Notes: generated by a model from the letters alone, not told the origin. A stretch of DNA of 64,000 bases from Leptogorgia sarmentosa (GCA_964658305.1 OZ210885.1:18972001-19036000), one strand, 5' to 3'. Shown: positions 14,816 through 63,885, counted from the stretch's first letter. Made by a program: numbers and translations.

Positions 14816-14832
14816 TCCGGCTCGAAGGACCA
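14816..14832 (-). promoter_or_regulatory. Primer-binding site complementary to tRNA-Tyr
   Basis: Minus strand reads TGGTCCTTCGAGCCGGA directly after the 5' LTR, complementary to the 3' end of eukaryotic tRNA-Tyr (…UCCGGCUCGAAGGACCA). Confidence 0.85.
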
Positions 14833-22624: not shown

Positions 22625-22808
22625 GTGACCAGAACAAGCATTCGGCCGCTGATTCGCAGTCTCTACATAAACCTTTTGTTTAATTTGATTGTTTAATTTG
22701 ATCCCGTAGTTTCCCCGACCCCGTTGAGACTGCGCGCAGGCTATGTTAGACCTACTTGCACACAGAATTAAGATCTATATATTATATTTGAAATACTACT
22801 TTTTCAGG

Positions 22809-28138: not shown

Positions 28139-28338
28139 TACGATGGCCGAGAAGGGCCATTACTATTTTCATGTCATTTTTCCGCAGTGATTGAATTTCA
28201 CACTGTCATTTTTTTCTGCGTTGTCATTTTTTTCGCCACGAGTAAAATTTCACAATGTCATTTTTTCATTCGACGTGGGCATGTTCATTTTTCATTCTTT
28301 TAGTTATATTGCTGTCAATAGATTGATATTGCCATGTC

Positions 28339-29607: not shown

Positions 29608-30160
29608 TCTAGTTGTGTTTTCTTATACCAAACTAAATATGTAAATGCTGATTTTAAGATTGGTGCACTAACCTTCATGCAATGGTAACATCGATGGACC
29701 TCAACCTAGTGGTAGGGTGTAACACGTAAAAGCGTCGCGTTTTACGTTATAGCACGGGCAAAGTAATCCAAATAAACATCGACGTTACCAATCAAGGTCA
29801 CAGCACCTTGTTCTTTTTTCTTTTAATTATTTTTAAAAGGTTAGATCATAATTTAAAGGGATTAGACAGTTTCCCATTTTAAGTTTTGAACCGCCTACAG
29901 TAAATGCAAAAATAATAAAACTTATTAAAACACAACTCTCCAAATCCATATTTTCATAATTTTAAACATAATATAAACAAATGGTTATTTCTGTATAAAT
30001 TGAACTGTAGTTACATGTTGATACAGTACATTCTATGTTTGAAACGTTTGGAAAATTAACTGTTCAAGAAACAGAATATCTAACTACAACAAGTATATAA
30101 CTGTTTTATTTCTAGTCTAGAATATTTAGTTTGTTTTACACTGTATGTAATTGTTTTCAT

Positions 30161-32282
30161 TTACAAATACTTAAGAATGTTAATGGCATCTGGCCTTTCT
30201 GAAGCATTATAATCAAAACACTTGACAAGAATGTCTTTAACACGTACAGTCTCTGGAGAAAATTGCTGCAAAGCTTTTGGATGCTCTTTTGCTTTCAAGC
30301 AATGATAGATCGCACCACAGCCCGGGGGTACACTCTCATCTTCATGTTCGTCATCTTCATTCTCGACATCCGAATCTTCTAATTGTCCCCAGCAGTCTTT
30401 ACCGGTAAACAATTCAACAAGAGTGCACACCAGTGACCACACATCCACTTTCGTAGTTGGTTTCATCTTTTGGAGAAGGCATTTGGGAGACATGTAATTC
30501 GGTGTACCTGCAACGCTCGCAATCGAAACATGAGTCCCATATCGCATAGCTTTGTAATATACGATCCAATTGCCACTAGGACATTGGCAGGTTTAATGTC
30601 CCTGTGCAGAATGGGTGGTTTTAAATTGTGCAGATATGCCACTGCTTGAGTTATCTGCTGACCCATGAATGGTTTCTTGTCATCAGTTATGGTGAATGCT
30701 CGTGTGTCATCTTCATCACTTGAGAAAAGCAGTTCATCCAAGTTTGAACCGTCAACTAGTTCCGAAACAATGTAGACAGCACTCTTTCCCATCGCCACTG
30801 CCATAATCTGCACAATATTTGGATGTCGTATCTTGCTGTGTACATGAATCTCTGACTGAATAACAGACTTCATCATCTTCATCTGTCTCACTTTCATCTG
30901 TTTTACTGCAATAGCAGTGCCGGCCCAAGATGCCTTGTAGACAGCTCCGAATGTTCCCCTCCCAATCTCGTCCAGTTTCGGATCGTATTGTAGATCCTGT
31001 CTGTCAATGAAAGGAACACCATATGAAACTGTATCAGCGGATGGTTTCCTTAGTAACACCACTTTATCTTCTTCGTTACCACTAGCAGACTTCCTTCGTT
31101 CCTTAGCTCCAGCAGTAGACACAACTGACAAAATATAGCACTTGACAATCTGTACTGCCGCAGAGGTTTGTTCTTGGTTACCACACTGCACTTTTACACT
31201 GTACTCGCCTTCTTCATTTACAGCTAAACAGCACAAATTGGGGCCCTCGTTGCACACACTACCGTCCTGGTACCATGTATACATTGCACAATCGGGAAAT
31301 TATGTGATGACTGCAAGTATAAGTTGATTATTATCGTATCCCCATATCTCCAAAGGATGGTGCAAGATCAAAGAGGCTTGCCGTATGTCAGCCATAGGGA
31401 ACTTGTAGGTGCTGGAAAGCTGAGAAGCTTGATCGTTATTCATGTCTTGAATGTCAGCTTCAATTTCTCTTACAACTTTTCTAAAATACTGTTTTTCTCC
31501 CTTTGAAATGCTGCTAATGGTAAAATTCGACTCAGGGGGTTGAAATTCTGCCAGCGGTGTATCTAGTAGGGTGAAGTCGTTTGTAGACACGATTTCGTAG
31601 CAATGCTGCCTGGAAAAAGATGAAATAATGACAGATTGGCCAGAGTAAGATGAACGAGATGAAAACTCATATTGGATGAGCAGGCTATGATTATCCAGCC
31701 ACTGGCAAGTGCACGCTTTTATTTTCCCCGTCACAGCAAAAGGCAATAACACTTGGTTTTCAGAAAACGATACCATTGACGAGCTTGATCGCGACTGGTC
31801 TGGGCCATCGGAACTCCTTGCTAGCACCACATTCTTGACAACCACATTATCATCCTCAGTAAACAGTTGTGACTCACTGGCAAGTGATTGATCGACATTG
31901 TTTACAGTCTTTGCAGTTGTCATCAAATACAGGTGGGTATGGCTGGAGTACAGCCCGTATGACTTGAGGTACTCGGGATAGGTAACTTCATTTCCGTCGC
32001 GATCGTAAAATGACTCGATTGGCCTTGTTGAAAATTACCTAATCCTACTTTCATTTCTGAAAGGGATCCACACTTTGACTTTCCTCCAGGGAAAAACAGC
32101 TCCTTTGCCCTGTCCAGTAAGAAGTCAGCTGTCACAACCTCATTTGAGTACTCAATTCTTCGTAGTCCCCCGCCATTATTAAGTTTAACTCGCTTGTACT
32201 TTGAACTTTTATCTGGTCTATGCAACCAACCAATGATTACTTTGTAGCTCTTCCTGGTTGCCTTTTCATTATGCTTTGATCT
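30161..32282 (-). pseudogene. Cargo gene: GWLH/GGG-motif domain, possible Ig-like segment and a Ser/Thr (TKL-like) protein kinase, frameshifted
   Basis: IGWLH..KYKRV...GGGLRR...KELFFPGG (31923-32240), YTWYQDG..EGEYSVKVQC, IGRGTFGAVY, AVK, HRDIKPANVL, KLCDMGL, AGTPNYMSP, DVWS, ERP. Confidence 0.85.
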
Positions 32283-43769: not shown

Positions 43770-44229
43770 ATATAATAATAATTTAATTGTGCTTTTTACA
43801 TACAATGATCCAAAGCGCATTACAATACACTCTTTTATACATGCAACTATTAATAATCTTAAATATATACATTTAATGGAGGCTAAAAGCTAGCTCTCTT
43901 TTCAGAGAGGAATTAAAAATTGAAAGAGAACTGATACTCCAAAGGCTTAGAGGAAGTGCATTCCAGAGTGTTGGCGCAGCCACACTAAAAGATCTGTCTC
44001 AGAATGATTTTAACATCTTCCCCACTGGATGTGAGATGATAATACCCGAATTGGAACGGAACGAGTACCATTCCCTAATATACTCTGGTGTCAAGCCGTT
44101 AAGAGCTTTGAAAGTTAAGAGTAAGATCTTAAAATGAATCCTATACCTAACTGGCAACCAGTGTAGTTCCTGTAAAACAGGCGTAATATGGCTGTACTTG
44201 CTAGTAGACGTTAGCAGCCTGGTCGCAGC
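43770..44229 (-). mobile_element. 3' end of an L2/CR1-group LINE (continues at 56230, 57674-58500 and 61530-61905)
   Basis: AATRLLT...HITPVLQELHWLPVRYRIHFKILLLTFKAL...RSFSVAAPTLWNALP, and an L2-like tail with TTA repeats. Confidence 0.85.
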
Positions 44230-44233
44230 CAGG

Positions 44234-47200
44234 AACGCGTATTGGTTGTTGTTATGCTGTGCCCTTAACAAAAATTCCGGTTATTTCTTCATTATTAACC
44301 AAGGCAAGCACGCTTGCCTTTACGATGATAATTCAGCTATTGCCCACGCGCTAAGTCAACTTTCGCGGTCTGCTATTCGAGGAATATAGGCGAACTGCAA
44401 GCGGCGCTTCTAAGGAAGGCCGCTCCATTGCCAATTGGTCAACTATCAATCCTAACATGTTTGTTATATGATACTTTCAGTACTAGCTTTCGCAATTCAA
44501 ATACCAATTAATAGTATTGACTCTGATCTTTGCATATTGTGGAGTGAATTAACTTGCAGTAGTTCTTGCCTTCATGTATTACTGAATTTTATGAAAGCAT
44601 TTTGAATCAGAAGATAAGGTTTGTATTTAAGCTTTAGGGCATCATTCTCTAGTGTATTCGAATATACATATATATGCACGTCATTTATTTGCGACTCAAA
44701 CGCGCATACAAATTGTATACTTGTATAATTGTATTCTAGAGCTCTCGTAACCTAAAATATTCGCTAACTGCCCAAGCCCAACTGATATCCACAAGTAAAT
44801 CTAACATTATATATACTATCTACTATATAGTAAACACCTAAACAATCTTCGGGTATTAGCATGCAAACTGCGGCAGTAGAGAGTAGCAGCATAGTTCGCG
44901 CATTTACAATAATACAACAAAAAATTGGCGCGCATATTTGATGACATCATTTGCATATATGTGCGTCATATATTGCGTGATATATGTACAAAGTGCTAAT
45001 GCGCCATGACATCAAATGTTCAAAATAGCGGTCGCAAAATAGGGTAGTGCCAATTTAATGCAGTGCTAGAAAAGTCCGATGACATGTTTAGAAAAGACGA
45101 GTATGTGGTAAGGAGTAGGTAATTTACGTAAGTAGAACCGCTCCTATACAAGCCACTCCTGAGCGGCAAAGATATATAACGGACAAAATTTCTACTTCTT
45201 CACATGTAAAAAAAACTAGTAGTGCAAAGTGTGATTACCGTCGTATACCCAAAATATATGAAATGAACACCTGTCTCGTGGAATTGTTGCTTTCTCGTCC
45301 TTTTGGATCCCGACGATTCTCAGAGAAAAAAGAAATTGTTGAAAGAGGACGCCCAACTCCCGAGATCCCAGAATTACACACAACATCGAAACGTGGCAGT
45401 AAAGTTTTTGTTCGAAGTTTTCAGACATCAAATTATGAAAAGTACAAGTGGCTTGCTGGTTCTACTAAACTCAATAAACTATTTTGCTGGCCATGCCTTT
45501 TGTTCAATCCCACAGACAATACTGTATGGAATAAGAAAGGATACAGCGATTTGGGGAATTTGTCTAATGCTATCAGTAGACACGAGAAAACCAAAAGTCA
45601 TTTGTCAAGTTGTTTGATGAATGCTGCTTTTGGTCGAGCCCGCATCGATTTGCAACTAGACGAGCAAACACGTCAGCATATATCAGCGCATAATCTGGCA
45701 GTGCATAAGAATAGAGAGATACTTCGCCGTTTTATTGATGTCGTTTGTTTCCTTGGCAAACAGGAACTTTCCTTTAGAGGACGGGTGGAGGTCCAAGAAT
45801 CAGCCAAATGTGGCAATTACGTGGAATTGGTGAAGCTGGTCAGTATATACGATTCCTCGCTGGAGCAACATCTTCAGACGGCTACTGTGTTTTCTGGAAT
45901 GTCGAATCATATTCAGAACGATTTGATCATTTCTGTTAAAAATGTCATAACCAAAGCAATTATGGACGAAGTGTTTAGCAGCCCATTCGTCGCGATTTCC
46001 ATGGACGAAACCTCCGACATTAAAACTTTGTCTCAGTTAACCACTATTATTCATTATGTAAACTCTGATGGCAAACCTGTGGAGCGTTTTCTTGGATTCA
46101 CCGACGTAAGCGAAGACAGAACAGCAGCGAGATTGAAACAAGAGGTTGACGGTACTTTGGAGGAGTACGGATGTGGTGGAAAATTGATTGCGCAAACATA
46201 TGATGGAGCGAGCGTTATGTCGGGGCAACTAACCGGTTTGCAAGCTCGTGTTAGAGAGGACTATCCACATGCCTTGTTTATCCACTGTTGTGGACATGCC
46301 TTGAATTTAGTGTTGGTCCAAGCAGTGTCGTCAACCAAAGAGTGCAGAGTATTTTTCAAGACTGTCAGTGGCCTTTCACGTCTCATCCAAGAGAACGCAT
46401 TTGTTAGACACGATTGTTGGTAGACGAATTCCCACTGGTACTGCTGTCCGATGGCATTATCACGCAAGACTAATCCATGCAATACTGGAGACGCGGGAGA
46501 AGCTGGTGGAAGTTTTCGAATACATCGTGGAACACGACGATGAATTCGAAGGTACTGTGCTAAACGAAGCTCGTGGCTACCGCAATATTCTCACAGATTT
46601 CCAGTTTGTGTTCTGCCTAAACATATTCTCACCTTTGTTCGGACTCACAACTATTCTCTACGATATTGTCCAAAGCAAGCAGTTTGATATTGCGTATTGC
46701 ATCAACAAAGTTCAGGAAACGAAAAGCAGAATTCAAGAATTACGGGACAATTTTGAATCGTATTGGAATTCTACTTTAGAAGTTGCGGATATACCGAAGA
46801 GACGAGGGCAAACTGAACAACAAGTTAAAGCGTCATTCCGTCGAATGTTTTTCTCTGTCGTTGACACCGCGGTCATGCAGATTGATGTCAGGTTCGAAAG
46901 TCTGAACAGCATGAAATTTGTTTCCTTGCTTGACCATTCAAAACACGAGTTGTATAGTAGAGATTTCCCAGAAGAAGAATTACATTCCTTGGAAGCCACC
47001 TATGGCTCATTTTTCAATATCCTTGCCTTAAAAAGTGAACTAACTGTTGTTTATGCATCTGCTCAACTTAAATCAAAACCTGTTTTTGCCATGATTAAAA
47101 AAATTGTTGAACTTGACTTACAAAATTGCTTTCCGGAAGTTTATCGTTTATGCCAACTGATCCTAACAATGCCAAGTACCTCGGCCTCGGCTGAGAGATC

Positions 47201-47762
47201 GTTTTCAGCGCTCAAGCACATCAAGACATACCTTTGAAGCACCCAAGGACAAGATCGGTTGTCAGCATTGGCTACCATCTCTATTGAGAAAGAACTTTTG
47301 ACTTGTTTGCAGGGGAAACCAGAGTTTTATGACAACGTTATAAAGAAGTTTTGTGCGAAAGAAAGAAGAATGGAATTTACATTTAAATAGTTTCATTAAA
47401 CCTTTTATATACATTTTTTATAATGCTTATGAGTTATGATGTAGTCATATAGACTGAGGAAATATATATAACATATTTATATCCCTAACTACAGACATGC
47501 ATTTACTGACATTACAGACATTTGAAGATATTTTTGCCTCGTGTATTTACTTTATTTTAGTAGTGATTTTAGTCATTAACTACAGGTGAAACAAACACTA
47601 ATTCGTTGTCATTTGCCGCTGAAATCGCCGTAAATGCCATCCCAGAGCTTTGCAATTTCAAAAATTTTCTGGGGGAGAATCCCCCCAGACCCCCCTTCAG
47701 GGTGTTCGCAGCTTCGCCGCGAACACCACTTGCCTACTACATTTGTTCACCGCACGCCACTG
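44234..47762 (+). mobile_element. hAT (ZMYM1/Tip100-like) transposon, left end deleted
   Basis: Right end ...CACGCCACTG at 47762 (CAGTGGCG-type hAT terminus). No matching left terminus seen. Confidence 0.75.
45263..47390 (+). pseudogene. hAT transposase (TTF-type finger, DUF4371-like, dimerisation domain); one frameshift near 46370 and a stop at 47235-47237
   Basis: KWL...LFCWPCLLF, SMDETSD, QTYDGASVMSG, IHCCGH.LNL, PSTSASAERSFS.LK.IKTYL*STQGQDRL. Confidence 0.92.
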
Positions 47763-47806
47763 GGTCGCACTACGACCGCAATGCATTTTTTTGCGTTTTC
47801 TTCAAG

Positions 47807-50800
47807 ATGGCGGATTTTGAACAACAAGACAGGTAAGTTTCGAATTGATTTTCTATTTATATTCAAGGTTTCTGCTTAAGAATTCTGATTAAAAAGAATA
47901 CTCCAAAACTAGTCTTCGTGTTGTCATACTTTTTGAGTCATCAAGGTTTAGAATTCTATCAAAATATCATGTCATTTGAAACACTTGTATTTTGGCAGGT
48001 TTCAAATATGTCTTTACATTCACATATACCAGGTTATATGTGCAAGTACTATGTTAAATTTTGCATTGAATGTGTTCTTTGATAGTTATTTTTTGCCTTT
48101 ATATGATCGCGCCGCGTAGCGCCCCTTGAATTTATCCTTTTTTTGGCACTTCATTTCGTGCTATTTTCAGGTTGGATTTTAGGTCTTCTTGCGAAGATTT
48201 ATCGAGTTCTACCGCCATATTGGGAAAGCGGTCATGCATTCCAGAGGGAAATACGTCTGGGAAAAACAAAACTAAGATAAAGAGGAGCGGAGAAGGCTGT
48301 ACAGCGAAAAAGTCGCTTTTTGATAATGAGAAAAAACAGGGGGAGATTAACAGAAAGTCTTGCAGTTGGGCGACTGCAGAATTGGCTGCATTGGTTCAAC
48401 ACATATGCCTGTACTGGGATGGTGCACACACTGAAAAATGGCCAACAACAAAAGACATGAAATTTTGGAATGAGTGTGCAATATCTGTCAATAAAATGTG
48501 TAATTCTTCTCGCACAGGTTGGCTACATTTATTAATTTCCATATTCCACCATCCACCAACAGAAAATTAGATAGTAGGCCTATATTGCAAGTTCCTACAT
48601 ACTGTGTACTGTTTTCTGTATACTACTCAACAGGGAGGGAAAGTTAAACTTGTTTGTTGTTTGGTGCTAAATTATTATTTTTTTCATAGGCTCATCATGT
48701 AGGACTAAAGTCACTAAATTTTTGGTCAAGGAGTTTGCAACGTTATCTGATGCAGAGGAATTTTATGAAATTGACTATGTTACCAGTGTAACTGACTTCA
48801 AAGAATCGTCCACTTCAACTCCAGCAAAGCCAACCACTAGTGATGTGAATGTATGCTTATCACCGATTTTTAGGTGTTCACCCCAGAAAGCAGCAAAGAT
48901 AACATTGGGTGATACAATTCAAAACTTTGTCTCTGCCTTTCAGTGTTCAATGTCTGAACGTCTGCGAAAGCAATTAATACAACATTTGTTTCAGCAGTTA
49001 GTCATCAGTTGTGGCGGGCATTCATTTAATTCATTTGTCCAACATGATTTCATTGACACAAGTCTTTCAGCAATGAAAGTGTTATATGATAAAGGCAAGC
49101 ATAACCTTGTTTACCATATCTCCAGGTGTTTTAATTGTGAGGGTGAAAGAGCAGAAACTCGAATGCCAATTGACAGGATGCCATTTGGTTTAATTGATTA
49201 CAATGTTCGATTTTTTTCATCGCCATCATCACAGAAACTAGGTATTGAGAATCATTATGCTATCTGGCTTGAAACCATGCTTGCCCATTTTGGTCAAAAG
49301 TGGCTGTGTCTGTTCAGAGGGCCCTTCTGGCAATATGAAATGCAAGAATATGCAGATGCATCTCTGCATTCCAGTACCAGTCAGGAGTCATGTGATGTTA
49401 ATGCAGGGATGGAGTCTATCATTGAAACTGCTCTGCAAGAATGTTCATTGAATTTAAATGAATACCAAGGACCTGTAGGTGAAATAACAAGCACATCAGG
49501 ATTGAGTGAACAAGTAGCATCATTACAGATATTAAATGATGTCAATATTGAAGAAATTGTTATTGATCATAATTCAGGAGTTGAAATTTTGGACTGGACT
49601 GAATCAGATCAATCTGTATCAGCGAAAGGGGAAAGCAGACAAGGCTTAATCGAAGTCATTTATGGGCACAGATAAACAATGAAGATCGTCAAGCTATTGA
49701 GAATGAGCAGATCTTGCCTGAATGCATGGAGGAGCACCACAGCATACATCCTATCTCCAACAAGAGAAGGGAAGTGAACCCCAACATATACAATCCACTG
49801 CAGGTCTGTATTGTATATATATATATATATATATATATGAGTGACAATAAAAATATTGAATGTTGAATCATATATGAATAGAGTGCTCAATACAAAAAGC
49901 AGAGCTTGTATAGAAGACAAACTTGAGATTTTGTTTAAAACATTTATTCACATTATATATATATATATATGACACTCTGTTTCAGGCCAAAGTAAATGTA
50001 GCTGCAATAGGAGTACGTCAGATTCAGAAAAACATTGCTCGTTCTGGCTTTGTAAAATCTGCTAACATCCAGGTATGAAAATTCATATTTTATCATTTTT
50101 GGAATTTTCAATCACTAATTCTCATCTTTTAATAGGCAATTCGTCACAACACAAACAGTTATTTATCACTTACTATATGATTGTATATGGTATTCCCCGT
50201 CCCACAAAAAAATTGTTTTTGTGTCATCATCTGTGGCTATTCCCAACATGTTTTCAATCAGTAAATAGGCAGGCACCATTTCTAAATGCCCAGTTTAAAT
50301 GCCACAACGAATATTAGCAAGTATTTAATCACTAAAAAGAACTTAATTCGTTCAAGTGTAGTTTAAATAGTGTTATACTTATTGTAAGTGTTTTTATAAG
50401 GTATTCCTCCCCAGACTTTTCCCCTTTAAAGTTTAAACAGAATTAAAACACTCTTTTGAGAAAGATCTAGACTAAAACGAATTTAAAACCTCTGTCTTGT
50501 TTTTAGGTGAAAGCTCTGCAAGATGCGAAGGCCAGCAACCCAAACGGTCGTTGGTGGATTAAAGCAGATGCGTGTGATGTTCGTGATGGTCTACGAGAGA
50601 GTGTGCATGGGATATGGTCTGGCGATGAAGATTTTGGCGATGGTTCTGTGGAAAGTCTTCATGCCGAGTATGCATCAAAATGTAATACTTTTAAAAGGCT
50701 ATTTGCTCAATAACACTCTAGTGTGTCAATGGATGATCTCAAAACATTGGTTGACGAGTTTGTTGATGACACAGAGTTCCTCAAAGATGGTATGGCCAGT

Positions 50801-53039
50801 GCAAAAGAAAAGTATGAGAAAAAACTAACTAATTCTCGGTGTTCAGATGACCTGCTTATGAAGTTGGCATGGGATGTTGTTGGATTTGAGCAACTTCTAA
50901 AGCAGGCAAATGAATTCAAGAATGAACTTGAACTCATGATTAACGATTTAAAGCTTTGTCTTCAAAATGTAGCAGTCGCGCGTCTACGAAACTTACAGGG
51001 AAGCATCATGCAGTACTACAAGGACCTCTACAGCAAGAAAAGATCTCCTGCAAGTCACTTGCTTGTATTCATGCTTGCTGACGAACTTTGCAATGTTAAG
51101 CCATATGCAGTTCCAATACAGTTTCTACCGATTAAGTCTATCACTGATGATCAGATCCGCCAGCTAGAACACGAGATTGAAGCTTTAATGAAAACCAATG
51201 GAATGGTTACAGTTGGTATGTAATTAGAACTAATAACGTGTGTCTAATTACAGGTAAATTCATTTACGATTTTATATTACTGAACAACATTGCCACAAAA
51301 TATTTACAGGATTCACCAGATGGAGAATTCAACTCGTTACGAACAATGGGGAGCAAACGTCCAATCTCTATCATTGAGGTCATCCGAAACGCCAAGGCAG
51401 AAGCCCGCAAAATGGGGGCAAAAACGATTTTGAAATATTTTACATTGAATCCAAATGGTATGTATGTTAGAATTTGTATTCAAACTATCCAGTTTTATTA
51501 TGATTTGTACATAATTATCAAAAATTCAGGCCTATTATAATGCAGCCTTAGTGGTTAAAATGTGTGAAAGGATGGAGGCTCATTATTTTCATAATCATAT
51601 TTTCAGGTAGTTCCACTGTTGAGGAACATCCTGCGGTTCCACTGGAAAGTATTTTGTGGTTGCACGATTACATGAATGAAAATGATGAAGCTAGACCAAT
51701 TGAGCAGGCTCTCTACATTCTAAGAAGGACGTTATTTCCTTTCTGTTAGGATCCATATCCATTCGTGGAAGGTAATGTTCAGTATCAAACAGGCAGTGTG
51801 CGGAAGAGAAACATTGTCAATTTTACAAAAAGTGTGTTGATTTTTTTACAGGTAGAAAGGAAACCAGGGCTGAGCTGTTAATGTCCATCATGGCCATATT
51901 TTTATTCCGTTGGAAAGTTCAGAAATTGAAAGAGTTACTAGTTGACCCTGCAAATTTCAATGACTTTCTCTACCAACCTGAGAAAGACGAGGATACCAAC
52001 GAATATATCCATCACCGTGAAGATCATAATCACATGTTGAAAAGATTGGTGAATTGCTTACGAGAAGGTTTAATACCCGGTATTGACCTCTGCTACTTCA
52101 GGGATGCATTACACAATCCAAAAACTGGATTAACATACGAGTCGCTCACAGGAAAGAATAAACAGTCTGTACCAGATTGCGAAAGGTTGATTTCTCCAGC
52201 CGTCGTTTCCTTCCTTAGAGAAAAGGGAGATATAAAAGGAGCCAATATTTTGTCAGTTATTTGCAATTGGCATAAAGCTGTTGACGGGAGAGGTCTTAGC
52301 GAAGAGGAACGTTCGTCCCATCTGACTGATATGAAGAACTGGCTACTCGATGATTGGATGCCCTGGCACAGATTCAATAAAGATTATTCGACAATTGACG
52401 TCAACAGGTCGGTAACACTGTATACAAATATGCATAATACTTTTTGACGTTCTCATTATGTTCAACTCGTATGTTAAAACAATATCTGGGCTATGTATGT
52501 AGTATATAATCGATTTGCATTGGGAATTATATTTTACTGCAGACCCATCAAAGGGTATATGTGGCCTGACCCGAGAGTTGGTGATTGCCCTCGTTGCAAA
52601 CTTGGAAAGCCGGGAAATTCGCAGGGCCGTGTATCAGAGAAGAGAAATGAAGCCAGAACACCCACGAGCATCATCTAGTGATGATGTAGAAGGGTTCTTC
52701 TCTCTACTCCATGGCATGTTGGGACCTGTGTTCGACCTGAAACAATTTTACGACGAGTCTCGGAAGATTTTGAACGAATATTCAAAACGAATCGACTCAG
52801 AACTACCATTCTTTCACTGGTCAGGCAAGAATGAGAGATACAGGGATTTCGAACTTCCCAGTTTTAATAAACCAAGCGGAAGTGGCGTTATCGAGAGGCT
52901 GGATAAACTGAAGGTATCGCGGCGGGGTGACCCAGGTGTATTCGTAGCCAATAGGGCTTCGCTTCCCCAAAAAGGTCAGCTAACATGCCGTGCAACGTTC
53001 CACAAAGCACCTGTTGCACTTCCACCATTGGGCAATTAA
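47807..53039 (+). pseudogene. Multi-exon P-element-like DDE transposase with an N-terminal Myb/SANT-like segment; contains in-frame stops
   Basis: ATG at 47807 and about 9 GT-AG exons. Motifs SWATAELAALV...KFWNECA...CRTKV, WWIKADACDV, LLVFMLADE, DGEFNSLR, EDHNHMLKR (D(2)H), GKNKQSVPDCERL, RASSSDDVEGFFS. Confidence 0.7.
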
Positions 53040-53238
53040 AAACAGACATTTTACAGCAGGTGCACAAGTACAACGGTATATCTGTATAAATAAATGTAAA
53101 TACGTAAACTACCAATTCATAAGAATCAATGCACACTTATAACCGTTATTCACCATGATAATTTTTAATGCAGAAACGTTTAAGTAAATTTTACATTGTT
53201 CTTCACTATGAATTGAAATAGATTGTTATAACTCAGTT

Positions 53239-53994
53239 CTATATTACATTTTTACTTGCTGCGACAACAGCATTGTCCCAAAGTCCTGTTTTTGTAATAT
53301 TTATCATGAGATAAAATCCGACACGCAGATAGTTTGTTCTAAAGCGAATATTCTTCACAGAGACTTCAATGTTACCTGCTTCTAAAAGTGGATGTATGAA
53401 ACAGGTTAATTCCCGTGGTATATATCCAACCTTTTCAAAGTCATTGTCTGACATTAGGTATACAGCTATTGCATTTGGGTCATATGTGTTATCAGGATCA
53501 GGCTCAAGGTCAACAAAAACATGTCTATTGTTAGTTATGTATTCATATGCAGTCTCTAAAATAGTCTGTCTCTCCTTTGACATGCAGGTTCCGAGAACTT
53601 TGAATGGGAGGGTATGTTTTTCTTGATTGGAAAACTCATTGGTTAAACCAGCAGGTTTAGCAGTTTTTTCTGGTACATTTAAGGATTCGTTTAATGTACC
53701 TATAGAAGCAGAAGGTTTCAGTTCCCATAAAACAATGTATTCTTCCTTGTTTTGCAATGTAATAGTACAATACTTTGTGCAAGTATATTTTCTTCGTCCG
53801 ATAATTTCAGCACTATTTACCAGGCCAGTGATATCCTTGTCCCCTTGTTTGAATGTAACTTCATTAAAGTTTATTGTGACCACAGGAAAGCATGGGATAG
53901 TCCAAGGCAATATGACTTTTTTGATACTCAAGATTTCAATTTCCAGTGGGGCAACTGTTGTGTCGACTGTAACTTCTATATAAGACAATACCAT
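53239..53994 (-). CDS. HIRAN-domain ORF (probably the terminal exon of the nuclease gene)
   Basis: FKVLGT...VDLEPDPDNTYDPNAIAV.....KVGYIPREL, the HIRAN signature (EPxNxYDxNAIxV...GYxP). Confidence 0.8.
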   Translation of the reverse strand: MVLSYIEVTVDTTVAPLEIEILSIKKVILPWTIPCFPVVTINFNEVTFKQGDKDITGLVNSAEIIGRRKYTCTKYCTITLQNKEEYIVLWELKPSASIGTLNESLNVPEKTAKPAGLTNEFSNQEKHTLPFKVLGTCMSKERQTILETAYEYITNNRHVFVDLEPDPDNTYDPNAIAVYLMSDNDFEKVGYIPRELTCFIHPLLEAGNIEVSVKNIRFRTNYLRVGFYLMINITKTGLWDNAVVAASKNVI

Positions 53995-54113
53995 AACTTG
54001 TAATGCAAGTCAATGCAACTGGATATCCTTACTGAAAGATAACTGCATTTACTATATATTATATTCAAATTACAATAAGCCAAGCTACAGTATACATTTT
54101 CTACATGTATTAC

Positions 54114-56084
54114 CATGTGTTTTCATATCACCACCCTCCTCTTGACCTTCCTCATCTTCACACATACAAGGATTAGGTACCTTCAAAAAAAACATAACAA
54201 ATTACACACTATTCTGTGCAAATAAAAATATATATATATATATGTTACATATAATTTGAAGAGGCTTGTAAACCCCTTCAAATAAATACTACTTAGCTGC
54301 TTGAATTACAGATTACTATGCACAACTATACACTGTTTTTATTTCCTTTTTCACATTATTAGAATGAATTTACCTGTCTCATTGGTACATGATCAAATGA
54401 CCCCTTCTTTACCTGGTCTTTGGGATCAATATTTCCTGCAGCCAAATCTAAGACAAAAGGCTTAGGTAATAAGCTAAACACTGTTGTTAAGGATAAATAT
54501 TCTACCAGAAAAACAGAAGTCAGTAGAACAATGAATATTGCAACTACAAAAAGATACTCTCCACAAATGGTTTGGAGTTCATTATCTATAATGACATCAT
54601 TATTTAACGGGAGTGTCTCACACACACTAGGATCATTGACTGTTTGGTGATTGAAAACCAGACAAGCTTGTTCAAAACCCTTAGTGTAGTCAGCTGGAGC
54701 ATACTTCAATGATTGCAACACATTTAAATAAGCCTTGTTCTCGCAAACAATTCTCTTGGCCTTATTAATGCCAACTCCTTTAATATTGTCGAGGTAGTCA
54801 CAGCCTGCTGCAATGCACATGTCTGTGAACTTATCTGCACTCAGGCTTAAATGTTTCAGGACCATTTTTAGCTCTACAAGGTCACCTGTGCCATTTCTTT
54901 CCAGCTTAAACAACACCTGCAATATGATAAAAGATAATTTATTTGATGGAAAACAGCATTGATTAAGCCATAAAGCTTTTAACTCCCAAATATGTATGGG
55001 CAAAACTTTGTTTGCTCCCTACCCATTTGCCACCTCCTACCCCATAAATAATGACCACTGATGACTGACTCCCTAGTGTAATACCAAATTTGCAGAAGCT
55101 ACAAGCTGGTCAGCTGCTAGTGAGCAATATATACACGTATAAATACCTTGTTACACTGATAGGCAAGCAAATCCGAGTCTTCTGACAAAGCAAAATCAGC
55201 ATAACCCTTTTTAAGAAGAAAGGCAATCTGGGCATCTGCTTCATATGGTGCCATTATATATGGTATGTCTCTTTCACAGCAAATCTAAATGACAAACCAT
55301 TTAACCATTTACAATTGGTGAAGACCTTACTTCACTTTTCATGTGAAAATACGAACTCAAAATCTGCAGGGTATATATTCTAGAATCGCTTATTACAGCG
55401 CCTGGTTTAAACAATTATGACATACCTTCACCAGCTTTCTTACTATTTCATAATTAATCTTGACCGATCTAGCCAAGGCTTTCTTTGCAGCCACATCATC
55501 ACCCAGTAAGGAAAAATATGAGGCGTTTTCATGCTCTTTGCTCCTCTTTCTACAATAATAATAGACAATTTTGAAATTTTCCTCCAAGAGCAACTACTAT
55601 AATATATCTATAATTTATTAAGAGGAATCTATATCACAAACAAATTTTATTTAATGTAATTAAAGGTTTTTAAACAATATAAAGGAGTTATTCTTACCTG
55701 GAACGCTTTTCGTTTACTCGTTGTTTCGCGGGAAGAGGCATGCTGTCGAACACAATATATGGCTTCACGCCATTTGCCGTCAAGAGACTCCTGAACGAGT
55801 CACATATATCAATGACCCTTGAAAAATTTGCATACTAATTAAAATAAACATTGTATAGATTGCTCATTTACAAATTTAGCGACTAAACAATACACAAATT
55901 ATAAGGCATACTGTTAAAACAATTATACAAACCTGCGATCATTGCCAAATTCTTTGTAGCTTACAGCCAACGCTTTGTGAAGCCAACACAACACATCGAC
56001 TGCACATACCTGGCCAGCGAAGTCTTTTATATGTACCTTGACAGTAGCTTCTTTCACAAAAGGCAAAAGGTTTTTTATTCCCAT
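54114..56084 (-). CDS. EXO1/XPG(FEN1)-family 5' nuclease, about 7 exons, transposon-borne
   Basis: MGIKNLLPFVK...AVDVLCWLHKA (N domain), PYIVFDSMPLPAK, YIMAPYEADAQIAFL...SEDSDLL (I domain), CIAAGCDYLDNIKGVGINKA (H3TH), GNIDP. Confidence 0.85.
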
Positions 56085-56871
56085 TGTTTTAAGAAAAAAT
56101 ATGCCTGGGTTCGTGATCTTTAACCTTCCATCACTTCGTTTCACCCTTTCGCTTCAGCAATCAGAGCACAACTGAGCGAAATTTTTATTTGCGCATGATG
56201 CATTGCGGTCGTAGTGCGACCACCGCCTGGGTCGCAGCATTCTGATCAAGGAAATCAAAATAATGGATCAACCTGACAAACTCACAGACACACGACTTAT
56301 AAACATACTAAACACAAACGACAAACTTGATCAACTACAAATTGATGCCCTGTCCTTGATAAGGAGTGGAAGGACTAACAACGATCAAACCAACAACGAC
56401 ATACACAACACACAAACACCAACGCACACTGACAGCAACACTGGCCTACAAAACCTGACCCAAAAAACACACCCGATAAAACAAACGACGACGATGAACT
56501 TATACCTCCACATACGGAAGAGACTAGAGCACCCTCCTCAACCTACAAACTCCTTTCCGACCTCCCTATACACCTACACACCACACTACATACCCTGAAC
56601 AACCTAAACGAAAAACAAATAAAAACACAAAATACCCTGGAAAACCTGACAACGCACAAAACCGATGTTACGCTACTCAACAGCCTAAACAAAACGACTA
56701 TTCACTAAAGTTATGTGAATTAGTTTATACATCTAACTGACAATATGGCTGGAAGATATGGGCTACCATGCAATACATCATTTTTTGTTTTTTTCTGTAA
56801 ACTGGTTAATCCATAACACACCCACCATCCTCATATACACAAAACTAAAAAGAACAACAACCAACAGAAAA

Positions 56872-57156
56872 GCCCCTACTGATGAAGGTCTTACACGGCA
56901 AAAAATGATCAACCTGTTCGGGGTTGATGAAAACAGGATTGAACAATGTTTTGCTGCCCACATTGTTCAGTGTTGTCAACAATATTGAACAACATTGTTA
57001 CACCCGAGTGCAGGCTTATTTAGGCTCAACAATGTTGTTCAATATTGTTGACAACACTGAACAATGTGGGCAGCAAAACATTGTTCAATCCTGTTTTCAT
57101 CAACCCCGAAAAGGTTGATCATTTTTTGCCATGTAGGACCGAAACACGTCGAGGGC
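56872..57156 (+). ncRNA. Minimal type I hammerhead ribozyme (Penelope-type) with a MITE in loop II
   Basis: Removing the MITE gives GCCCCT A CTGATGA A GGTCT-TA-GGACC GAAAC AC GTC G AGGGC: core boxes, stem II, a short stem III and a closing stem I. Confidence 0.7.
56894..57133. mobile_element. Palindromic MITE (240 bp) with TA TSD
   Basis: CACGGCAAAAAATGATCAACC...GGTTGATCATTTTTTGCCATG, with arms covering most of the element. Confidence 0.92.
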
Positions 57157-57673: not shown

Positions 57674-58500
57674 TCATCGGCAAAAACCATGGGCATCAGG
57701 GAGATGTGCTTGAACAATCTCAAAAAGATTTGAAGCATACATAACAAAGAGAAGTGGCCCAAGGCAACTCCCTTGTGGGACCCAGAAGCGCACATCACAA
57801 CTGTCTGATGTAACTCGGTCAAACACGATGCGATGGCTACGCCCTGACAAATATGAAGAAAACCACTCTAGAGCCTTTCCCTGAATACCAAAACTCGAAG
57901 ACAAGCATGACAGTAAAATCTCATGATACACTGTATTGAATGCAGCGCTTAAATCCAAAAGGACAAGTAACATAACACTTTGCAAGTTCATATTCATAAG
58001 AATATCGTTAGCAAACTTGAGTAGCGCTGTCTCTGTGCTATGGTACTGACAATAAGCTGATTGTAGTAGAGGATAAAGACCTGACTGAACCAAGTGGTCA
58101 TAAATCTGATTAAATACAGCATGCTCAATGAGGGTAGAGATAAGCTAAATAACTAACAGGACACAAGTTCATAAACAGCTGGTCAAGGCCCAGTTTCTTT
58201 AACAGTGGTTTGACTGCGGCCACTTTCCAGTCCTCAGGGAAAACTCCTGATTCCAATGAGGTGTTAATTATTTTAGTGATTACTGGTGGTGTGGGGACAG
58301 GATCAAGAGAGCAGGATGTGAATTTAGAGTTGGCAATGAGTATGCGCACATCGTCCCCCATCAGCAACGCAATTATTCAAAAACAGATGGAGTCGGTGGG
58401 TCAGGTATAGTGCTACTATAATCCGGGACATTGTTCGTAGTCGCGATACCCAAATCGAGCTCATCTCGAATCCGAATAACTTTCTGCACAAAATACATCC
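57674..58500 (-). pseudogene. L2/CR1-group RT fragment (same element as 43770-44229)
   Basis: SCSLDPVP, WKVAAVKPLLKK, STETALLK, LDLSAAF, VPQGSCLGPLLF. Confidence 0.85.
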
Positions 58501-61500
58501 CTAGATAGATAGATAGTTTATTAACTAAAACATTGCAGCCATAGGCTGAATTACGTTAAGTTTACAAAATTATTATAGCTACTAAGATATAGGTGATAAA
58601 TATAAAATGTGACAAATCTAATTATTGAAGACATGACTAAAGATAAAACTGTTCTTGCAACGTTCAGTCTTGCATTTTGGTAGTTTATATGATCTTTGAC
58701 TCCTAAGAGAGTACATAGGTATGTTCTTTTCAGGCAAAAGTGAGTACAATTTATGGTCTTTGTTTGCTTGGATCTCGGCGAAGAGCTTGGAGGAGATATC
58801 TTCTCTTCTTTCAGATAGTGTGGGTAAACCAGACGCGCAGATGGATTCAGCATAAGACAAATCAGAGTAGATGATCCGAAGAGCACGTCTTTGGAGACGT
58901 TCCAGGTCATCACTCAGATAGGCTGGCAGAGCACAGTGGAAAACTGGGCTGGCATATTCCAAAATCGACCTGATACACGTACAGTAGAATAGAATGAGTT
59001 CTTCCAGGCCAACTCTCCATCTCTTGAGCTGCTTTAAACAAAGACGAGAAGAAGCTTTCTTTACCAGTTCAGATATATGAACGTTCCACTTGAGATCATT
59101 ACTAATGATCAGTCCCAAGATTTTAGCACTGGACACAACTTCAAGGGGCTTGCCATTTACTTCTACTGGGTCATTAGTAGGCTGTTTCTTTGCAAAACAA
59201 ATCCTGATCTCTTTGCACTTGCTTTCGTTAAGTTGGAAGTCGTTAGAGAGAGACTGTCTAGAAAGACAGTCTACAGCAGCTTGAATGTTACTGGTTTGGC
59301 CTTTCTCTTGCACCTCTAAAATTGTGGTGTCGTCGACGTATTTCCACATAGATACTCCTTGAACTCTGAGGTCGTTGATCATTATTAGAAAGAGCCACGG
59401 GCCCAGTTTGGTCCTTTGGGGCACCCCAGCAGGAACAGAAATCCATTCTGAATAGCAGTCGTTCGCAAGCTTGACACGTTGCTTTCGTTTCATCAGAATG
59501 TCTATGATCCAATATAGTACTTGTTGTGGGATGTCATACGCGGACATTTTCTGCATTAGGATGTTGTGGTTAATCAGATCAAAAGCCTTGCGAAAGTCAA
59601 ACAATACAACATGGTTCGTAGCTCTGTTTCCATCAGTAGTCACGTAAAGCTTGTGCGTTATGTTAAGGGCATGCGTTGTACTCGATTTAGGGATCGTGCC
59701 AAATTGGTGAACGTCGATTTTGTTAAGGACAGCAGGTTTTACATAGCTTTCCACGACGTGGTCCTCTGCAATCTTGGAGATAATTGGTGTAAGTGAGATT
59801 GGGCGAAGATGTTTATTTATGTCTTGAATTGGTCTTTGCTTGGGGACCGGGACGACATCTGCTTCTTTCCAGGCAGGGGGTAATCGCCCTTCTCGATAGG
59901 AACAGTTGAGAATATCACATATTGGACAAGCCAGAAGATCGGCATTTTCTTTCAGGAGCCATGCTGGGATTGCGTCAGGGCCTTGCGCTTTAGTTGGATT
60001 GAGCGTCACGAGTTTCTTAAGAGTAGACATTTCAGTCATAAGTGGAAATTCATCAGTGAGGTCCCCCGGTACAGCATGTTGTTGGAGAGGGTTGCAGGTG
60101 AGTAGTTCAAGGTTTTCCATTGGAGTAAAAAAACTTGTATTGATAAAGTTGGCGCAAATCCACATATCACTCAGTTTCTTTACCTCTTTCCACCAGCTAG
60201 ACGGCGAACACTTAAGGTGTTCAACTTTACATTCGTAGTACTTCGCCCGGCAGGTCTTGCGTTCGCGATTAACTCTATTCCTCAGGTGACGAAACTCCTC
60301 TAGATTTCCCTGACTGAGTGCTGATTGACGCTTTCGAATCAGGATTTTTAAGGAGCAGTTGATCCATGGTGGTTTCGGTTGTATGCAAAACTTTCGATTG
60401 CAAGGGTGAAATAAAGTCAAGTCCACTTTTGATGATCGTTTTAAGCAGGGATGTTTTATCTTCACAAGAGTTTGCAGTGTTGATGGTATCGGTGACGTTC
60501 ACTTGATCAAGATACGTCCGCATTGCTAGTCGATTACTGGGTCTCAGATCTCTGAATAGAACAGGGTGTTTAACTTGAGAAGATTTAGGTCGTTGCTTTG
60601 GCTGTACTTCAGCAGAACAGTGATCTGAGAGTCCAAATGCAGGACGCTTGATCAGTGGGTCGTAGTAGGTCTTCAAGTTGGTTAGGATTTTGTCCAATGT
60701 GTTCCCACCGCGAGTTGGAAAGTGAATGATTTGCTTCAAATCAAAATTTGATTTTAACCGCAAATCATTGAGTTGATTTAAGTCGCCTAGTAAGATTATA
60801 CCGCTGTTCGGGTGTTTGGATCGATATCTGATAAACAGCTAATGAGATAGTCAAACATTACAGAGTTGTTTGTTGTTGGTGGATGGTAAACGAGGCCGAT
60901 TATAATATCGGAGATTCCCCTAGGGAGTCGATGTGGTCTTATTTTGATCCATAGCACTTCCAAACCATCGGTCTTATCAGTGAGATCGTCTAAACCGGTG
61001 AAATGGATTAGTTCATTTAGGTATATACATACACCTCCATGGACTGTGGAACTCCTGTCAAGACGAATTAAGTTGTAGCCTTGTATATCCACTGCAGAGT
61101 CTGGAATGTGTTTTTGTAGCCAAGTCTCCGTAATACAAACAATGTAGAAATTTGCATTTATAACAGAGTATGCAAGTTCGTCGATTTTAGGAGCCAGAGA
61201 CATCACGTTAGAGAGGAACATCGATGGGACAAAGTGCTTGTCCTGTCGAACACTTTTATTGGGCTTGCTAGGAATGATATACATGTAGTTTGCAGGATTG
61301 CGAGAGCGGCGATGAACTTTTCCTTTCAAGTTACGCTTCGCTTGGTTTGGTTGAACATGGCGGATTACATAGCATTTAGAAACTTCTCACACTTTCCAGC
61401 TGTTTTCCCTCTGTAACGTTGCCACAGCGTTTTCTTAGCAGTAAAAACATTCTTGATAGTTAAAACTAATGATTGGATAAGTAAGAAGTATAAAATTAAA

Positions 61501-62290: not shown

Positions 62291-62986
62291 GATTGAAGGT
62301 TTTACAACCATTGAGGCTGGATAACTTTCTTTGTAGAGCGATCTAGAGCCATAAACCGGGAAAACTAGCTTGTATAAAACAAGTAGTTTTACATTGCCAG
62401 TGTTTATCATAGTTCTTGGAATTGAGTTTCAATTTAATAATATGACGTGCTGTTCGTCCGGCAATTTTATCTTTTACCCCAAAATACCCTTTCCCTAATC
62501 CTAAATATCCCTAATTTTATCCCTAATTTTATCCGTAAATATCCCTGGAATTGCCTATAGCCACTTTGTTAAAGTGCTACTGAATCGAAATTTTGGGTAT
62601 GCGTTTTTTTACATAATCGAATAGTTCAATCTTTCCTGATCAGTATGGTATATTTTTTATAATAATTGAAGAACGGGAACACGGATAATTTTCGCTTCAA
62701 AGTTGGGCTATGCATGCGAATTTTTTCTCTTGAAATATGATGCCGGTGTGACGTAATTAAAAGGACGGAAGTCGATGTATGAGCAAGCTTTGCTATATAT
62801 TTTGTTAGTGTTTTTGTGTATGTTCATGAATAAACACGAGTTTATCGAGCAGAGAAAGCGAACGGAGTTTGGATAACGAGAACTCTGATGCGTGTAGTGA
62901 AAATTTACATACGGATTCGAGCGATGAGGAAACATTGGTCGTGAATTCCGTTGTGAATCCGTATGAAAACGAGCCGCTCGCAAAGC

Positions 62987-63885
62987 CCTATTGGACTTTC
63001 CTTTGAATGATGTTGTAGGTATTTTAGATCTGCTGTATAGCTATGATCATGTATTGTGGGTATTAGGCTTTAGTCCTTTTTGTTATATAGTCTAGGTGTT
63101 TAAAATGTCCAGTCCGTGTTGTAGTGTGGCTAAAAACACGATATTCGCGCAGAGTCTATATTATAAGACTGCCCTACGAGGTGCTTTTTAGGAAGACACG
63201 CATATAGCACAGATACACACATATACATATAAGTTTATACATTCCACGTGCACACAATTAAAAACGTGAAAAATAAAGCTAGAATTAATGTATTAAAAAC
63301 TGTGAAAGGTGCATGGGAGGAAGGTATTGTGGGTATGGTTGTCTAAGTCAAGTGTGAAATATCTATGTATGTATGTTGAGGCCATCATATAATTCAGAGA
63401 GTCTAGGATTACTAGACCTTACTTTTGAAGTATATTGGCGAGAGTTATTTGAGTATAGATACAATCATCCGTGGATAAGTTTTGTATAGTAATGTCACCT
63501 TTTACAGTTTTTAATACATTAATTCTAGCTTTATTTTTCACGTTTTTAATTGTGTGCACGTGGAATGTATAAACTTATATGTATATGTGTGTATCTGTTC
63601 TGTGCTATATGCGTGTCTTCCTAAAAAGCACCTCGTAGGACAGTCTTATAATATAGACCCTGCGCGAATATCGTGTTTTGGCCATTTACAACATACGACG
63701 ACACACTACAACACGGACTGGACATTCTAAACACTTAGAGTCCTAGACTATTTAACAAAAAGGACTAAAGCGTAGTACTCAAAATACATGATCATAGCTA
63801 TACAGCAGATCTAAAATACCTACAACAACATTCAAAGGAAAGTCCATTAGGACTCTTTGATTATCAGTTCAACAATGAACGGGTC
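62987..63885. repeat. Two inverted copies of the dispersed repeat, forming a large palindrome
   Basis: About 62988-63312 is the reverse complement of about 63496-63850, with a spacer of roughly 185 bp. Confidence 0.85.

What the first reader, a model, noticed from the sequence alone, without database searches (positions are those of the whole stretch)
53239..56084. Probable EXO1-like nuclease-HIRAN fusion protein
Seen in sequence: the nuclease exons keep the N, I and H3TH catalytic motifs (VFDS in place of VFDG). They lack the long MMR-interacting tail of host EXO1 and continue through a small acidic exon (54114-54180, VPNPCMCEDEEGQEE) with a GT donor. A TTTCAG acceptor near 54035 leads into the HIRAN ORF, and one frameshift near 53980 is needed to join them. 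Established knowledge: HIRAN in HLTF/Rad5 binds free 3'-OH ssDNA ends, and EXO1 is a 5'-to-3' exo/flap nuclease. Inference: a 3'-end-holding, 5'-resecting enzyme would suit the 3' overhangs that P-type transposases leave.
Basis: partly seen in the sequence, partly recalled or inferred. Interest (0 to 1): 0.72.

Follow-up and report, generated by a model that had tools for sequence, protein, structure and literature searches.

The report
Transposon-borne EXO1-OB-HIRAN fusion nuclease
A P-element-like jumping gene, likely from a coral, carries a second spliced gene that joins a DNA-trimming EXO1-type enzyme to a HIRAN domain and a predicted OB fold; this gene stays beside the transposase in many related elements and likely helps the element get copied back into the gap it leaves.

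Summary
The fusion is real and needs no frameshift. RNA-like contigs of a ~93% identical relative splice at the matching site, in frame (4 of 4 runs, one study). A second, distant family shows the same small-exon junction. Database proteins of a coral, lancelets and hemichordates have the same layout. A predicted OB fold lies between nuclease and HIRAN. The gene sits tail-to-tail with a broken P-like transposase inside an 8.5-kb element with inverted ends. Among loci fetched by the transposase alone, 14 of 15 with enough flank carry the OB-HIRAN exon (12 families besides this one), under purifying selection between families. It is therefore a conserved accessory gene of a P-like lineage. Best mechanism (inferred): it holds the 3' tail and resects the 5' strand at the excision site, favouring homologous gap repair that restores the element. 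Ten paper searches found no description; Repbase could not be checked. This scan noted EXO1-like partners in algal ISL2EU elements and HIRAN-like helpers in mariner/pogo elements, but not this fusion.

The parts
55933..56084 (-). EXO1-OB-HIRAN exon 1 (ATG at 56084; XPG_N, D30)
   Evidence: (XPG_N E 1.6e-7)
55698..55817 (-). exon 2 (VFDS motif, D75; basic arch residues K82, R89)
   Evidence: intron 2 removed in all 4 contig sets
55426..55549 (-). exon 3
55147..55284 (-). exon 4 (XPG_I; E147, D149, D168, D170)
   Evidence: (E 1.9e-15)
54558..54916 (-). exon 5 (H3TH, GCDY, D218)
   Evidence: human EXO1 E 3.6e-9, ahead of FEN1 E 3.7e-6
54374..54473 (-). exon 6 (end of nuclease domain); acceptor chosen by frame and homology
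   Evidence: its donor is used in run X3; intron 5 is retained in those contigs
54114..54180 (-). exon 7, 67-nt acidic linker exon, ends in phase 1
   Evidence: 64-nt counterpart in L020/L043
53239..53975 (-). exon 8: predicted OB fold (about model aa 364-441), flexible linker, HIRAN (about aa 473-595), stop
53976..54113 (-). intron 7 (138 nt, GT-AG, phase 1), the nuclease-to-OB-HIRAN junction
   Evidence: junction in 4 of 4 runs of a relative; unspliced in DNA run X5, record 17
47807..53039 (+). P-like DDE transposase gene, 9 predicted exons, broken in this copy (2 in-frame stops, 3 apparent frameshifts)
47763..47786 (+). left terminal inverted repeat, inner 24 bp; outer 8 bp missing where a hAT end abuts
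56198..56229 (-). right terminal inverted repeat, 32 bp, beginning CAGG at 56229
   Evidence: same tip upstream of the transposase in L004, L015, L030, L043; X5 record 19 leaves the window sequence after 56229
56230..56237 (+). 8 bp flanking the right tip; the same 8 bp recur at 44221-44228 (possible target-site duplication, unproven)

Best explanation
This is a spliced, in-frame gene for a 598-aa EXO1-type nuclease fused to a predicted OB fold and a HIRAN domain, carried tail-to-tail with the transposase in a P-like cut-and-paste transposon, and it likely resects the broken ends left at the excision site so that homologous repair would copy the element back. Shown: the exon frame, the junction in relatives, the domains, the element ends and the conserved linkage. 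Inferred, step by step: (1) the transposase cuts like Drosophila P and leaves 17-nt 3' single-stranded tails; (2) HIRAN caps the 3'-OH and the OB fold grips the tail; (3) the tethered nuclease trims the recessed 5' strand; (4) long 3' tails favour gap repair from the sister chromatid over end joining, so each jump adds a copy. The fused DNA-binding domains would replace the host-partner tail that this EXO1 lacks.
For: Frame: 598 aa with no stop. Junction 54114 to 53968 with one letter between, net skip 144 nt, in frame, in 4 of 4 runs of one study; one contig also joins exons 2-3 and 6-7. The 6-nt difference matches an 88% identical database protein that lacks the same two residues. DNA run X5 is unspliced there. 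Second family: L020 is spliced on both strands against genomic L043/L044, with a 64-nt exon joined in phase 1 to the OB exon. A phase-1 pyrimidine-rich acceptor lies near the exon start in 10 of 14 loci, and 6 of 14 have no in-frame Met before the domain. XPG and HIRAN both pass Pfam cut-offs in one chain in P0003, P0027, P0058, P0164 and P0172. Linkage: 16 of 56 transposase-fetched loci carry the OB-HIRAN exon, all tail-to-tail; 14 of 15 with a complete transposase end and at least 1.5 kb downstream; 7 of the 16 also show EXO1 exons; 12 families besides this one. dN/dS is 0.18-0.26 in the 5 of 21 family pairs without saturation. All seven acidic active-site positions and both arch basics are kept. 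The D94 equivalent is D in 69 of 71 rows. P leaves 17-nt 3' extensions and its donor break is repaired by HR or NHEJ (PMC7776569, passages). HLTF D94 reads the 3'-OH (PMC5773155, passage).
Against: No activity or substrate was tested, and the cut geometry is borrowed from Drosophila P although this transposase has no detectable THAP domain. No RNA of the window's own copy was seen. The in-frame acceptor scores weakly (2.5, against 5.7-14.1 for 14 training sites; the site at 54032 scores 4.3). The relative's copy has an inversion across exon 4 and retains introns 3 and 5, so a complete 8-exon mRNA was never seen. Dominant contigs of DNA runs X5 and X7 have 54-nt and 44-nt deletions in exons 5 and 4. 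pN/pS between the window and the relative is 0.76 (11 synonymous of 34 listed differences, p = 0.28), so these copies drift. The presumed Y72 position is M here and Y in only 27 of 80 rows; the Y93 position is Y in 21 of 71. OB matches have Z 7-8, which the tool calls middling, and a low-confidence Atlas model of a homologue's middle domain gave no OB hit. 4 of 19 loci with at least 1 kb downstream lack the exon. Linkage to a transposase was not testable in lancelets and hemichordates.
Confidence: 0.5

Rival explanations
1. The protein works at the insertion site, not the donor site. After strand transfer it holds the target 3' end and trims 5' flaps or widens the gaps so that host polymerases can finish the insertion.
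For: EXO1/FEN1-type folds cut flaps and gapped DNA (recalled). HIRAN grips primer 3' ends (PMC5773155, passage). The P review says repair at the target site has not been investigated. In Academ, the accessory enzyme is linked to TSD length (PMC10045372, passage).
Against: Host FEN1 and EXO1 should handle such gaps, and canonical P elements manage without a helper. An OB fold plus HIRAN suits a longer single-stranded tail (inference).
Confidence: 0.17
2. The nuclease is part of excision: it makes or trims the non-transferred strand cut, creating the 3' extension on the transposon end in place of the transposase's second cut.
For: Near-universal linkage, transposase and partner identities correlated across families (Spearman 0.73, 55 non-independent pairs), and the transposase is divergent and lacks THAP. 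Earlier AI notes on ISL2EU elements proposed the same for EXO1-like partners (untested).
Against: The transposase keeps P-type acidic motifs and D(2)H, and Drosophila P cuts both strands itself. A processive exonuclease would endanger the inverted repeat.
Confidence: 0.15
3. It is captured host-gene cargo with no role in transposition, kept only by linkage or for a benefit to the host.
For: The intron-rich structure suggests capture at DNA level. Copies decay. A review notes that accessory and cargo genes can be hard to tell apart (PMC6431247, passage).
Against: Fixed position and orientation in 12 other families with transposases 47-82% identical, dN/dS near 0.2 between families, and intact catalytic motifs. 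Passive cargo would be lost or randomised.
Confidence: 0.1
4. EXO1-like and OB-HIRAN are two separate neighbouring genes, and the fusion is an artefact of gene prediction.
For: An in-frame ATG lies 19 nt upstream of the acceptor, exon 7 reads on to a stop at about 54087, the acceptor is weak, and most HIRAN-search hits are short single-exon pieces.
Against: Spliced junctions in two families; one open frame from the end of the nuclease into the OB domain in L003; conserved phase-1 acceptors; 18 of 24 OB-HIRAN proteins of 300 aa or more carry an EXO1 part (that profile was partly built from them).
Confidence: 0.05

Closest known systems
Exonuclease 1 (EXO1; XPG/FEN1 5'-nuclease family; PDB 3QE9, 5UZV)
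   Same: Best solved match for the nuclease: E 2.4e-67 for lancelet homologue P0003 against 1e-17 for FEN1/XPG; window exon 5 also prefers EXO1. Active-site positions kept.
   Different: Ends at about residue 331; the long C-terminal tail is replaced by a predicted OB fold and HIRAN; lies inside a transposon.
HIRAN domain of HLTF / Rad5 and lp_0118 (PDB 4XZF, 6KCS, 3K2Y)
   Same: Pfam PF08797 above cut-off; VIA Z 11.3 (rmsd 3.0, 99 aligned) to 3K2Y and 8.9 (rmsd 3.7, 107 aligned) to 6KCS; N-x-x-D pocket motif conserved.
   Different: C-terminal and fused to a nuclease, not N-terminal to a SWI/SNF translocase; the two base-stacking tyrosine positions vary.
P superfamily transposons (Drosophila P element, THAP9)
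   Same: Homologue P0012: Atlas feature score 0.94 (196 of 256), 10 of the 10 best family hits are P/THAP9, TM about 0.5 to THAP9 models. PF21787 recurs below cut-off (best E 3.5e-4). 32-bp terminus beginning CA against 31 bp in P.
   Different: 8.5 kb with two convergent genes; no THAP found; long helical insert in the RNase H N-part; second gene is a nuclease.
DNA transposons with accessory nucleases: AcademX, KolobokE / D / P
   Same: A DDE transposase travelling with its own nuclease (PMC9587614 and PMC10045372, passages). That the AcademX nuclease is of the XPG family is recalled; the paper was not held.
   Different: Different transposase superfamily; the nuclease is EXO1-derived, on its own convergent gene, and fused to OB and HIRAN. 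'HIRAN' and 'XPG' occur 0 times in PMC9587614.
OB-fold single-strand binders (PriB, SSB, RPA, HIN-200)
   Same: Model residues about 3-93 align to these in most rows; best Z 8.1 (rmsd 2.8, 77 aligned) to PriB 4FDB.
   Different: At most 14% identity; no sequence-family hit; DNA binding untested.

Membership tests
EXO1 (XPG/FEN1 family) | XPG_N and XPG_I regions with H3TH | tested here: met
EXO1 (XPG/FEN1 family) | Seven acidic active-site residues and arch Lys/Arg (human D30, D78, E150, D152, D171, D173, D225, K85, R92; roles recalled) | tested here: met
   D30, D75, E147, D149, D168, D170, D218, K82, R89 in the model, mapped through P0003
EXO1 (XPG/FEN1 family) | Closer to EXO1 than to FEN1, XPG or GEN1 | tested here: met
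   (similarity only; no tree with host EXO1 proteins was built)
Host EXO1 orthologue | Long C-terminal MLH1/MSH2-binding tail (recalled) | tested here: not met
   replaced by OB and HIRAN; so EXO1-derived, not the host orthologue
EXO1 (XPG/FEN1 family) | 5'-3' exonuclease / flap activity | not testable with these tools
   needs purified protein
HIRAN | Pfam PF08797 and HIRAN fold | tested here: met
HIRAN | 3'-OH pocket: D94, with Y72 and Y93 pinching bases | tested here: inconclusive
   D519 (69 of 71) and Y518 present in the window; the Y72 position (mapping recalled) is M here and Y in 27 of 80
OB fold | Five-stranded barrel superposing on SSB/RPA/PriB | tested here: inconclusive
   confident model (pLDDT 92-97 over the domain); consistent OB rows but Z 6-8; Atlas model of a homologue gave no OB hit
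P superfamily | P-type split RNase H transposase with three acidic residues and D(2)H | tested here: met
   Atlas 0.94, 10 of 10 P/THAP9; conserved D, TDGE, DHxHxxK, DDVEG motifs; Pfam PF21787 only below cut-off
P superfamily | Terminal inverted repeats of about 30 bp | tested here: met
   24-bp perfect pair, 0 of 100 shuffles with 2 matches; 32-bp right end, tip shared with 4 loci
P superfamily | 8-bp target-site duplication | tested here: inconclusive
   left tip interrupted by a hAT; 8-bp match at 44221-44228 and 56230-56237; no fetched locus held both ends
Canonical P element / THAP9 | N-terminal THAP domain | tested here: not met
   no THAP hit in window exons 2 and 3 or in 13 locus ORFs; hence 'P-like lineage', not a canonical P element
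Canonical P element / THAP9 | GTP dependence and 17-nt staggered cut | not testable with these tools
   described in PMC7776569 (passages)
AcademX | Academ transposase with nuclease, 3-4 bp TSD | tested here: not met
   transposase groups with P/THAP9; ends begin CAG, whereas Academ ends begin TAG (recalled)

The most novel reading that the evidence does not exclude
An old P-like lineage of marine invertebrates (corals, and probably lancelets and hemichordates) built its own one-chain end-resection machine from a captured host EXO1, an OB fold and a HIRAN domain. It reads the P-type 3' overhang at the excision site and forces homologous gap repair, turning cut-and-paste into net copying: a transposon that steers the host's choice of repair pathway.
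Probability: 0.4. Interest if true: 0.82.

Novelty: new variant of a known kind. Interest (0 to 1): 0.68.

Why it matters
How cut-and-paste transposons gain copies depends on how the host repairs the donor break, and elements are usually seen as passive in that step. A conserved EXO1-OB-HIRAN partner would show an element bringing its own repair-steering enzyme, and it makes the question testable with a two-gene system. It also adds the P group to the superfamilies with accessory nucleases, explains a set of 'exonuclease 1-like' gene models in lancelets, hemichordates and corals, and offers a compact natural resection enzyme of possible use for favouring homology-directed repair.

Tried and rejected
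No whole genome is held, so copy number and a comparison of genomic copies were not possible. Contig depths over the element (about 40-230) against the hAT (about 280-1400) are no copy number. No listed holder is on record as RNA; I treat X1-X4 as RNA because of exact GT-AG joints and almost no cover of the flanking hAT. Alignment A1 was meaningless (P0005 is nuclease only) and was dropped. The AlphaFold model of the transposase was unusable (pLDDT 38), and PDB sequence searches with transposase profiles found no P transposase. Viral contigs: 0 relatives, 0 terminal-repeat matches. Metagenome contigs: 0 exact terminal-repeat matches. No long locus held both ends. Foldseek on the two-domain model gave no E below 0.001. 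The Atlas feature search on the middle domain gave no usable hit. Rejected: the acceptor at 54032 and the frameshift; a domesticated single-copy host gene in this organism (inside inverted repeats, drifting copies); Academ membership. Paper searches: for novelty (listings only; no title or abstract start described this element) and 85, 86, 88 for background. The AcademH paper, Yuan and Wessler 2011 and Kojima's 2019 review were not held. No supplements were read; those of the Kolobok paper, and Repbase, may hold such families.

Full report
VERDICT. The finding is real and larger than reported. It is an eight-exon gene for an EXO1-type nuclease fused to a predicted OB fold and a HIRAN domain, and it is a conserved second gene of a P-like DNA transposon lineage. 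My odds: fusion about 0.93, conserved transposon partner about 0.9, the specific mechanism about 0.5.

1. GENE MODEL. On the minus strand the exons are 56084-55933, 55817-55698, 55549-55426, 55284-55147, 54916-54558, 54473-54374, 54180-54114 and 53975-53239, all with GT-AG introns of 84-230 nt. They give 598 aa without a stop. Pfam finds XPG_N in exon 1, XPG_I in exon 4 and HIRAN in exon 8. Mapped through a lancelet homologue to human EXO1, the seven acidic positions and two arch basics are all kept (their catalytic roles are recalled). A weak point: a small matrix trained on the 14 other acceptors I assigned in the element scores the in-frame site 2.5, below all training sites and below the 54032 site (4.3).

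2. THE JUNCTION IS SPLICED IN RELATIVES. Contigs of four runs (one study, a relative about 93% identical, RNA by guess) join 54114 to 53968 with one letter between, in 4 of 4 runs. That equals the 138-nt intron plus a 6-nt in-frame difference, and an 88% identical database protein lacks the same two residues. One 2,849-nt contig also removes introns 2 and 6. That copy has an inversion (54972-55236) through exon 4 and retains introns 3 and 5, so no complete mRNA was seen. A DNA run of a closer organism is unspliced across the junction (X5, 53347-54135), and its dominant contigs carry 54-nt and 44-nt deletions in exons 5 and 4. In a distant family (OB-HIRAN about 35% identical), contig L020 lacks the introns of genomic L043/L044 on both strands, including a 325-nt GT-AG intron that joins a 64-nt exon to the OB exon in phase 1; that copy is also broken. 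In L003 one open frame runs from the end of the nuclease into the OB domain. Of 14 loci examined, 10 have a pyrimidine-rich phase-1 acceptor near the expected exon start, one has phase 0, one is the spliced L020, and two aligned only from HIRAN on. Six have no in-frame Met before the domain.

3. FUSED PROTEINS ELSEWHERE. Searches with exon 8 returned long proteins that their sources name exonuclease 1-like, Rad2 nuclease or uncharacterized: Branchiostoma belcheri and B. floridae (604-624 aa), Ptychodera flava (635 aa and partial models), Glandiceps talaboti (626 aa) and the coral Desmophyllum pertusum (558 aa). XPG and HIRAN both reach Pfam cut-offs in P0003, P0027, P0058, P0164 and P0172; HIRAN is below cut-off in P0001, P0002, P0162 and P0170 and not found in P0052 and P0163. 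Of 24 OB-HIRAN proteins of 300 aa or more, 18 carry an EXO1 part (the profile was partly built from them). These are automatic gene models whose RNA support I did not see.

4. A THIRD DOMAIN. AlphaFold on exon 8 with 80 sequences gave mean pLDDT 89: a beta domain (residues 10-87), a disordered linker and HIRAN (119-241). HIRAN aligns to lp_0118 (Z 11.3) and HLTF (Z 8.9). The beta domain aligns to OB folds (PriB, SSB, RPA, HIN) in most rows, at Z 6-8. The tool calls such Z middling, and a low-confidence Atlas model of a homologue gave no OB match, so the OB call is a prediction. In HIRAN the Asn and Asp of the pocket loop are kept in 69 of 72 and 69 of 71 rows; the tyrosine positions vary. D94 reads the 3'-OH in HLTF (PMC5773155, one passage read).

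5. THE ELEMENT. A perfect 24-bp inverted repeat lies at 47763-47786 and 56198-56221. The right end extends to 56229; the same CAGG-type tip precedes the transposase in L004, L015, L030 and L043, and a DNA contig leaves the window sequence after 56229. The outer 8 bp of the left end are missing where a hAT abuts; the 8 bp beyond the right tip recur at 44221-44228, which may be the target duplication. A nine-exon plus-strand gene (47807-53039) has two stops and three apparent frameshifts. Its named homologues are from corals, hence my inference about the host. A homologue scores 0.94 against P/THAP9 clusters in the Atlas, 10 of 10 best hits; Pfam PF21787 recurs only below cut-off; no THAP domain was found. 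Both genes start just inside the ends and converge, with stops 200 bp apart.

6. CONSERVED PARTNERSHIP. I fetched 56 loci with the transposase alone. Sixteen carry the OB-HIRAN exon, always tail-to-tail and 0.3-1.4 kb from the transposase. Among loci with a complete transposase end, the counts are 15 of 19 with at least 1 kb downstream, 14 of 15 with 1.5 kb and 10 of 10 with 2 kb. Seven of the 16, plus L056, show EXO1 exons further out. One of the misses, L018, is 97% identical to a positive locus and diverges before the exon. The positives form 12 families besides this one, with transposases 47-82% and OB-HIRAN 24-67% identical between families. Between families dN/dS of the exon is 0.18-0.26 in the 5 of 21 unsaturated pairs, and nuclease motifs are intact. 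Between the window and its close relative pN/pS is 0.76 on 34 listed differences. Selection between families with drift among copies is what a gene needed for transposition should show.

7. MECHANISM (inferred). Drosophila P transposase cuts 17 bp inside the element on one strand, leaving 17-nt 3' extensions, and the donor break is repaired by HR or NHEJ (PMC7776569, passages). It follows that the donor ends also keep 3' tails with recessed 5' strands. HIRAN on the 3'-OH, an OB fold on the tail and EXO1 on the 5' strand fit that geometry. Resection would favour repair from the sister chromatid, which restores the element and yields a net copy. Rivals are processing at the insertion site (0.17), a role in excision itself (0.15), passive cargo (0.10) and two separate genes (0.05).

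8. COMPARISON AND NOVELTY. Accessory nucleases are known in Kolobok lineages (lambda-exonuclease-like, DEDDh, His-Me; PMC9587614, passages) and AcademX (PMC10045372, passage). Seven novelty searches (listings only) and a term search of PMC6431247 showed no P-like element with EXO1 and no EXO1-HIRAN fusion. Repbase, subscription papers and supplements were not seen. Earlier notes of this scan report EXO1-like partners in algal ISL2EU elements and HIRAN-like helpers in mariner/pogo elements (unchecked), but nothing like this sequence. I file it as a new variant of a known kind: EXO1-derived but not the host orthologue, in a P-like but not canonical element.

Noticed in passing
window 44230-47762: hAT element (DUF4371, hAT dimerisation) whose right end abuts the left inverted repeat of the P-like element; DNA runs show an internally deleted form joining 44984 to 47563.
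   Followed up: partly
window 44221-44228 and 56230-56237: The same 8 bp flank the hAT's far end and the P-like right tip, and they resemble the start of the inner repeat; nesting order unresolved.
   Followed up: partly
window 9138-15053: BEL/Pao-type LTR retrotransposon with 221-bp repeats 99% identical and DUF1759, Peptidase_A17 and integrase hits.
   Followed up: no
window 8092-9180, 26533-27006, 22337-22774: RecQ-like helicase pieces (Helicase_C in the first two) among transposon debris; may belong to helicase-bearing elements such as AcademH (recalled).
   Followed up: no
window 4662-5117, 18708-20636, 23955-26120, 28327-31299: THAP domain, two further hAT transposases, and an integrase-core ORF (rva_4) convergent with a protein kinase ORF; the last pair may be another two-gene element.
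   Followed up: no
window 52540-53239: Contigs of X3 and X4 run from the nuclease gene's last exon through the 200-bp gap to the start of the transposase's last exon, suggesting overlapping convergent transcripts; L020 is spliced on both strands.
   Followed up: partly
window 48171-48517: Transposase exon 2 has a Trp-spaced helical stretch that looks Myb/SANT-like by eye, in place of THAP; no Pfam hit.
   Followed up: partly
L056 1409-2141: EXO1 exons lie directly after a truncated transposase, with the OB-HIRAN exon and transposase end missing: an internal deletion.
   Followed up: no
protein P0105: 638-aa protein with four HIRAN repeats among the search hits.
   Followed up: no
window 57674-61386: Non-LTR retrotransposon pieces (RVT_1 at 58618-60498) and high-depth inverted-repeat elements at 56887-57140 and 62984-63854.
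   Followed up: no
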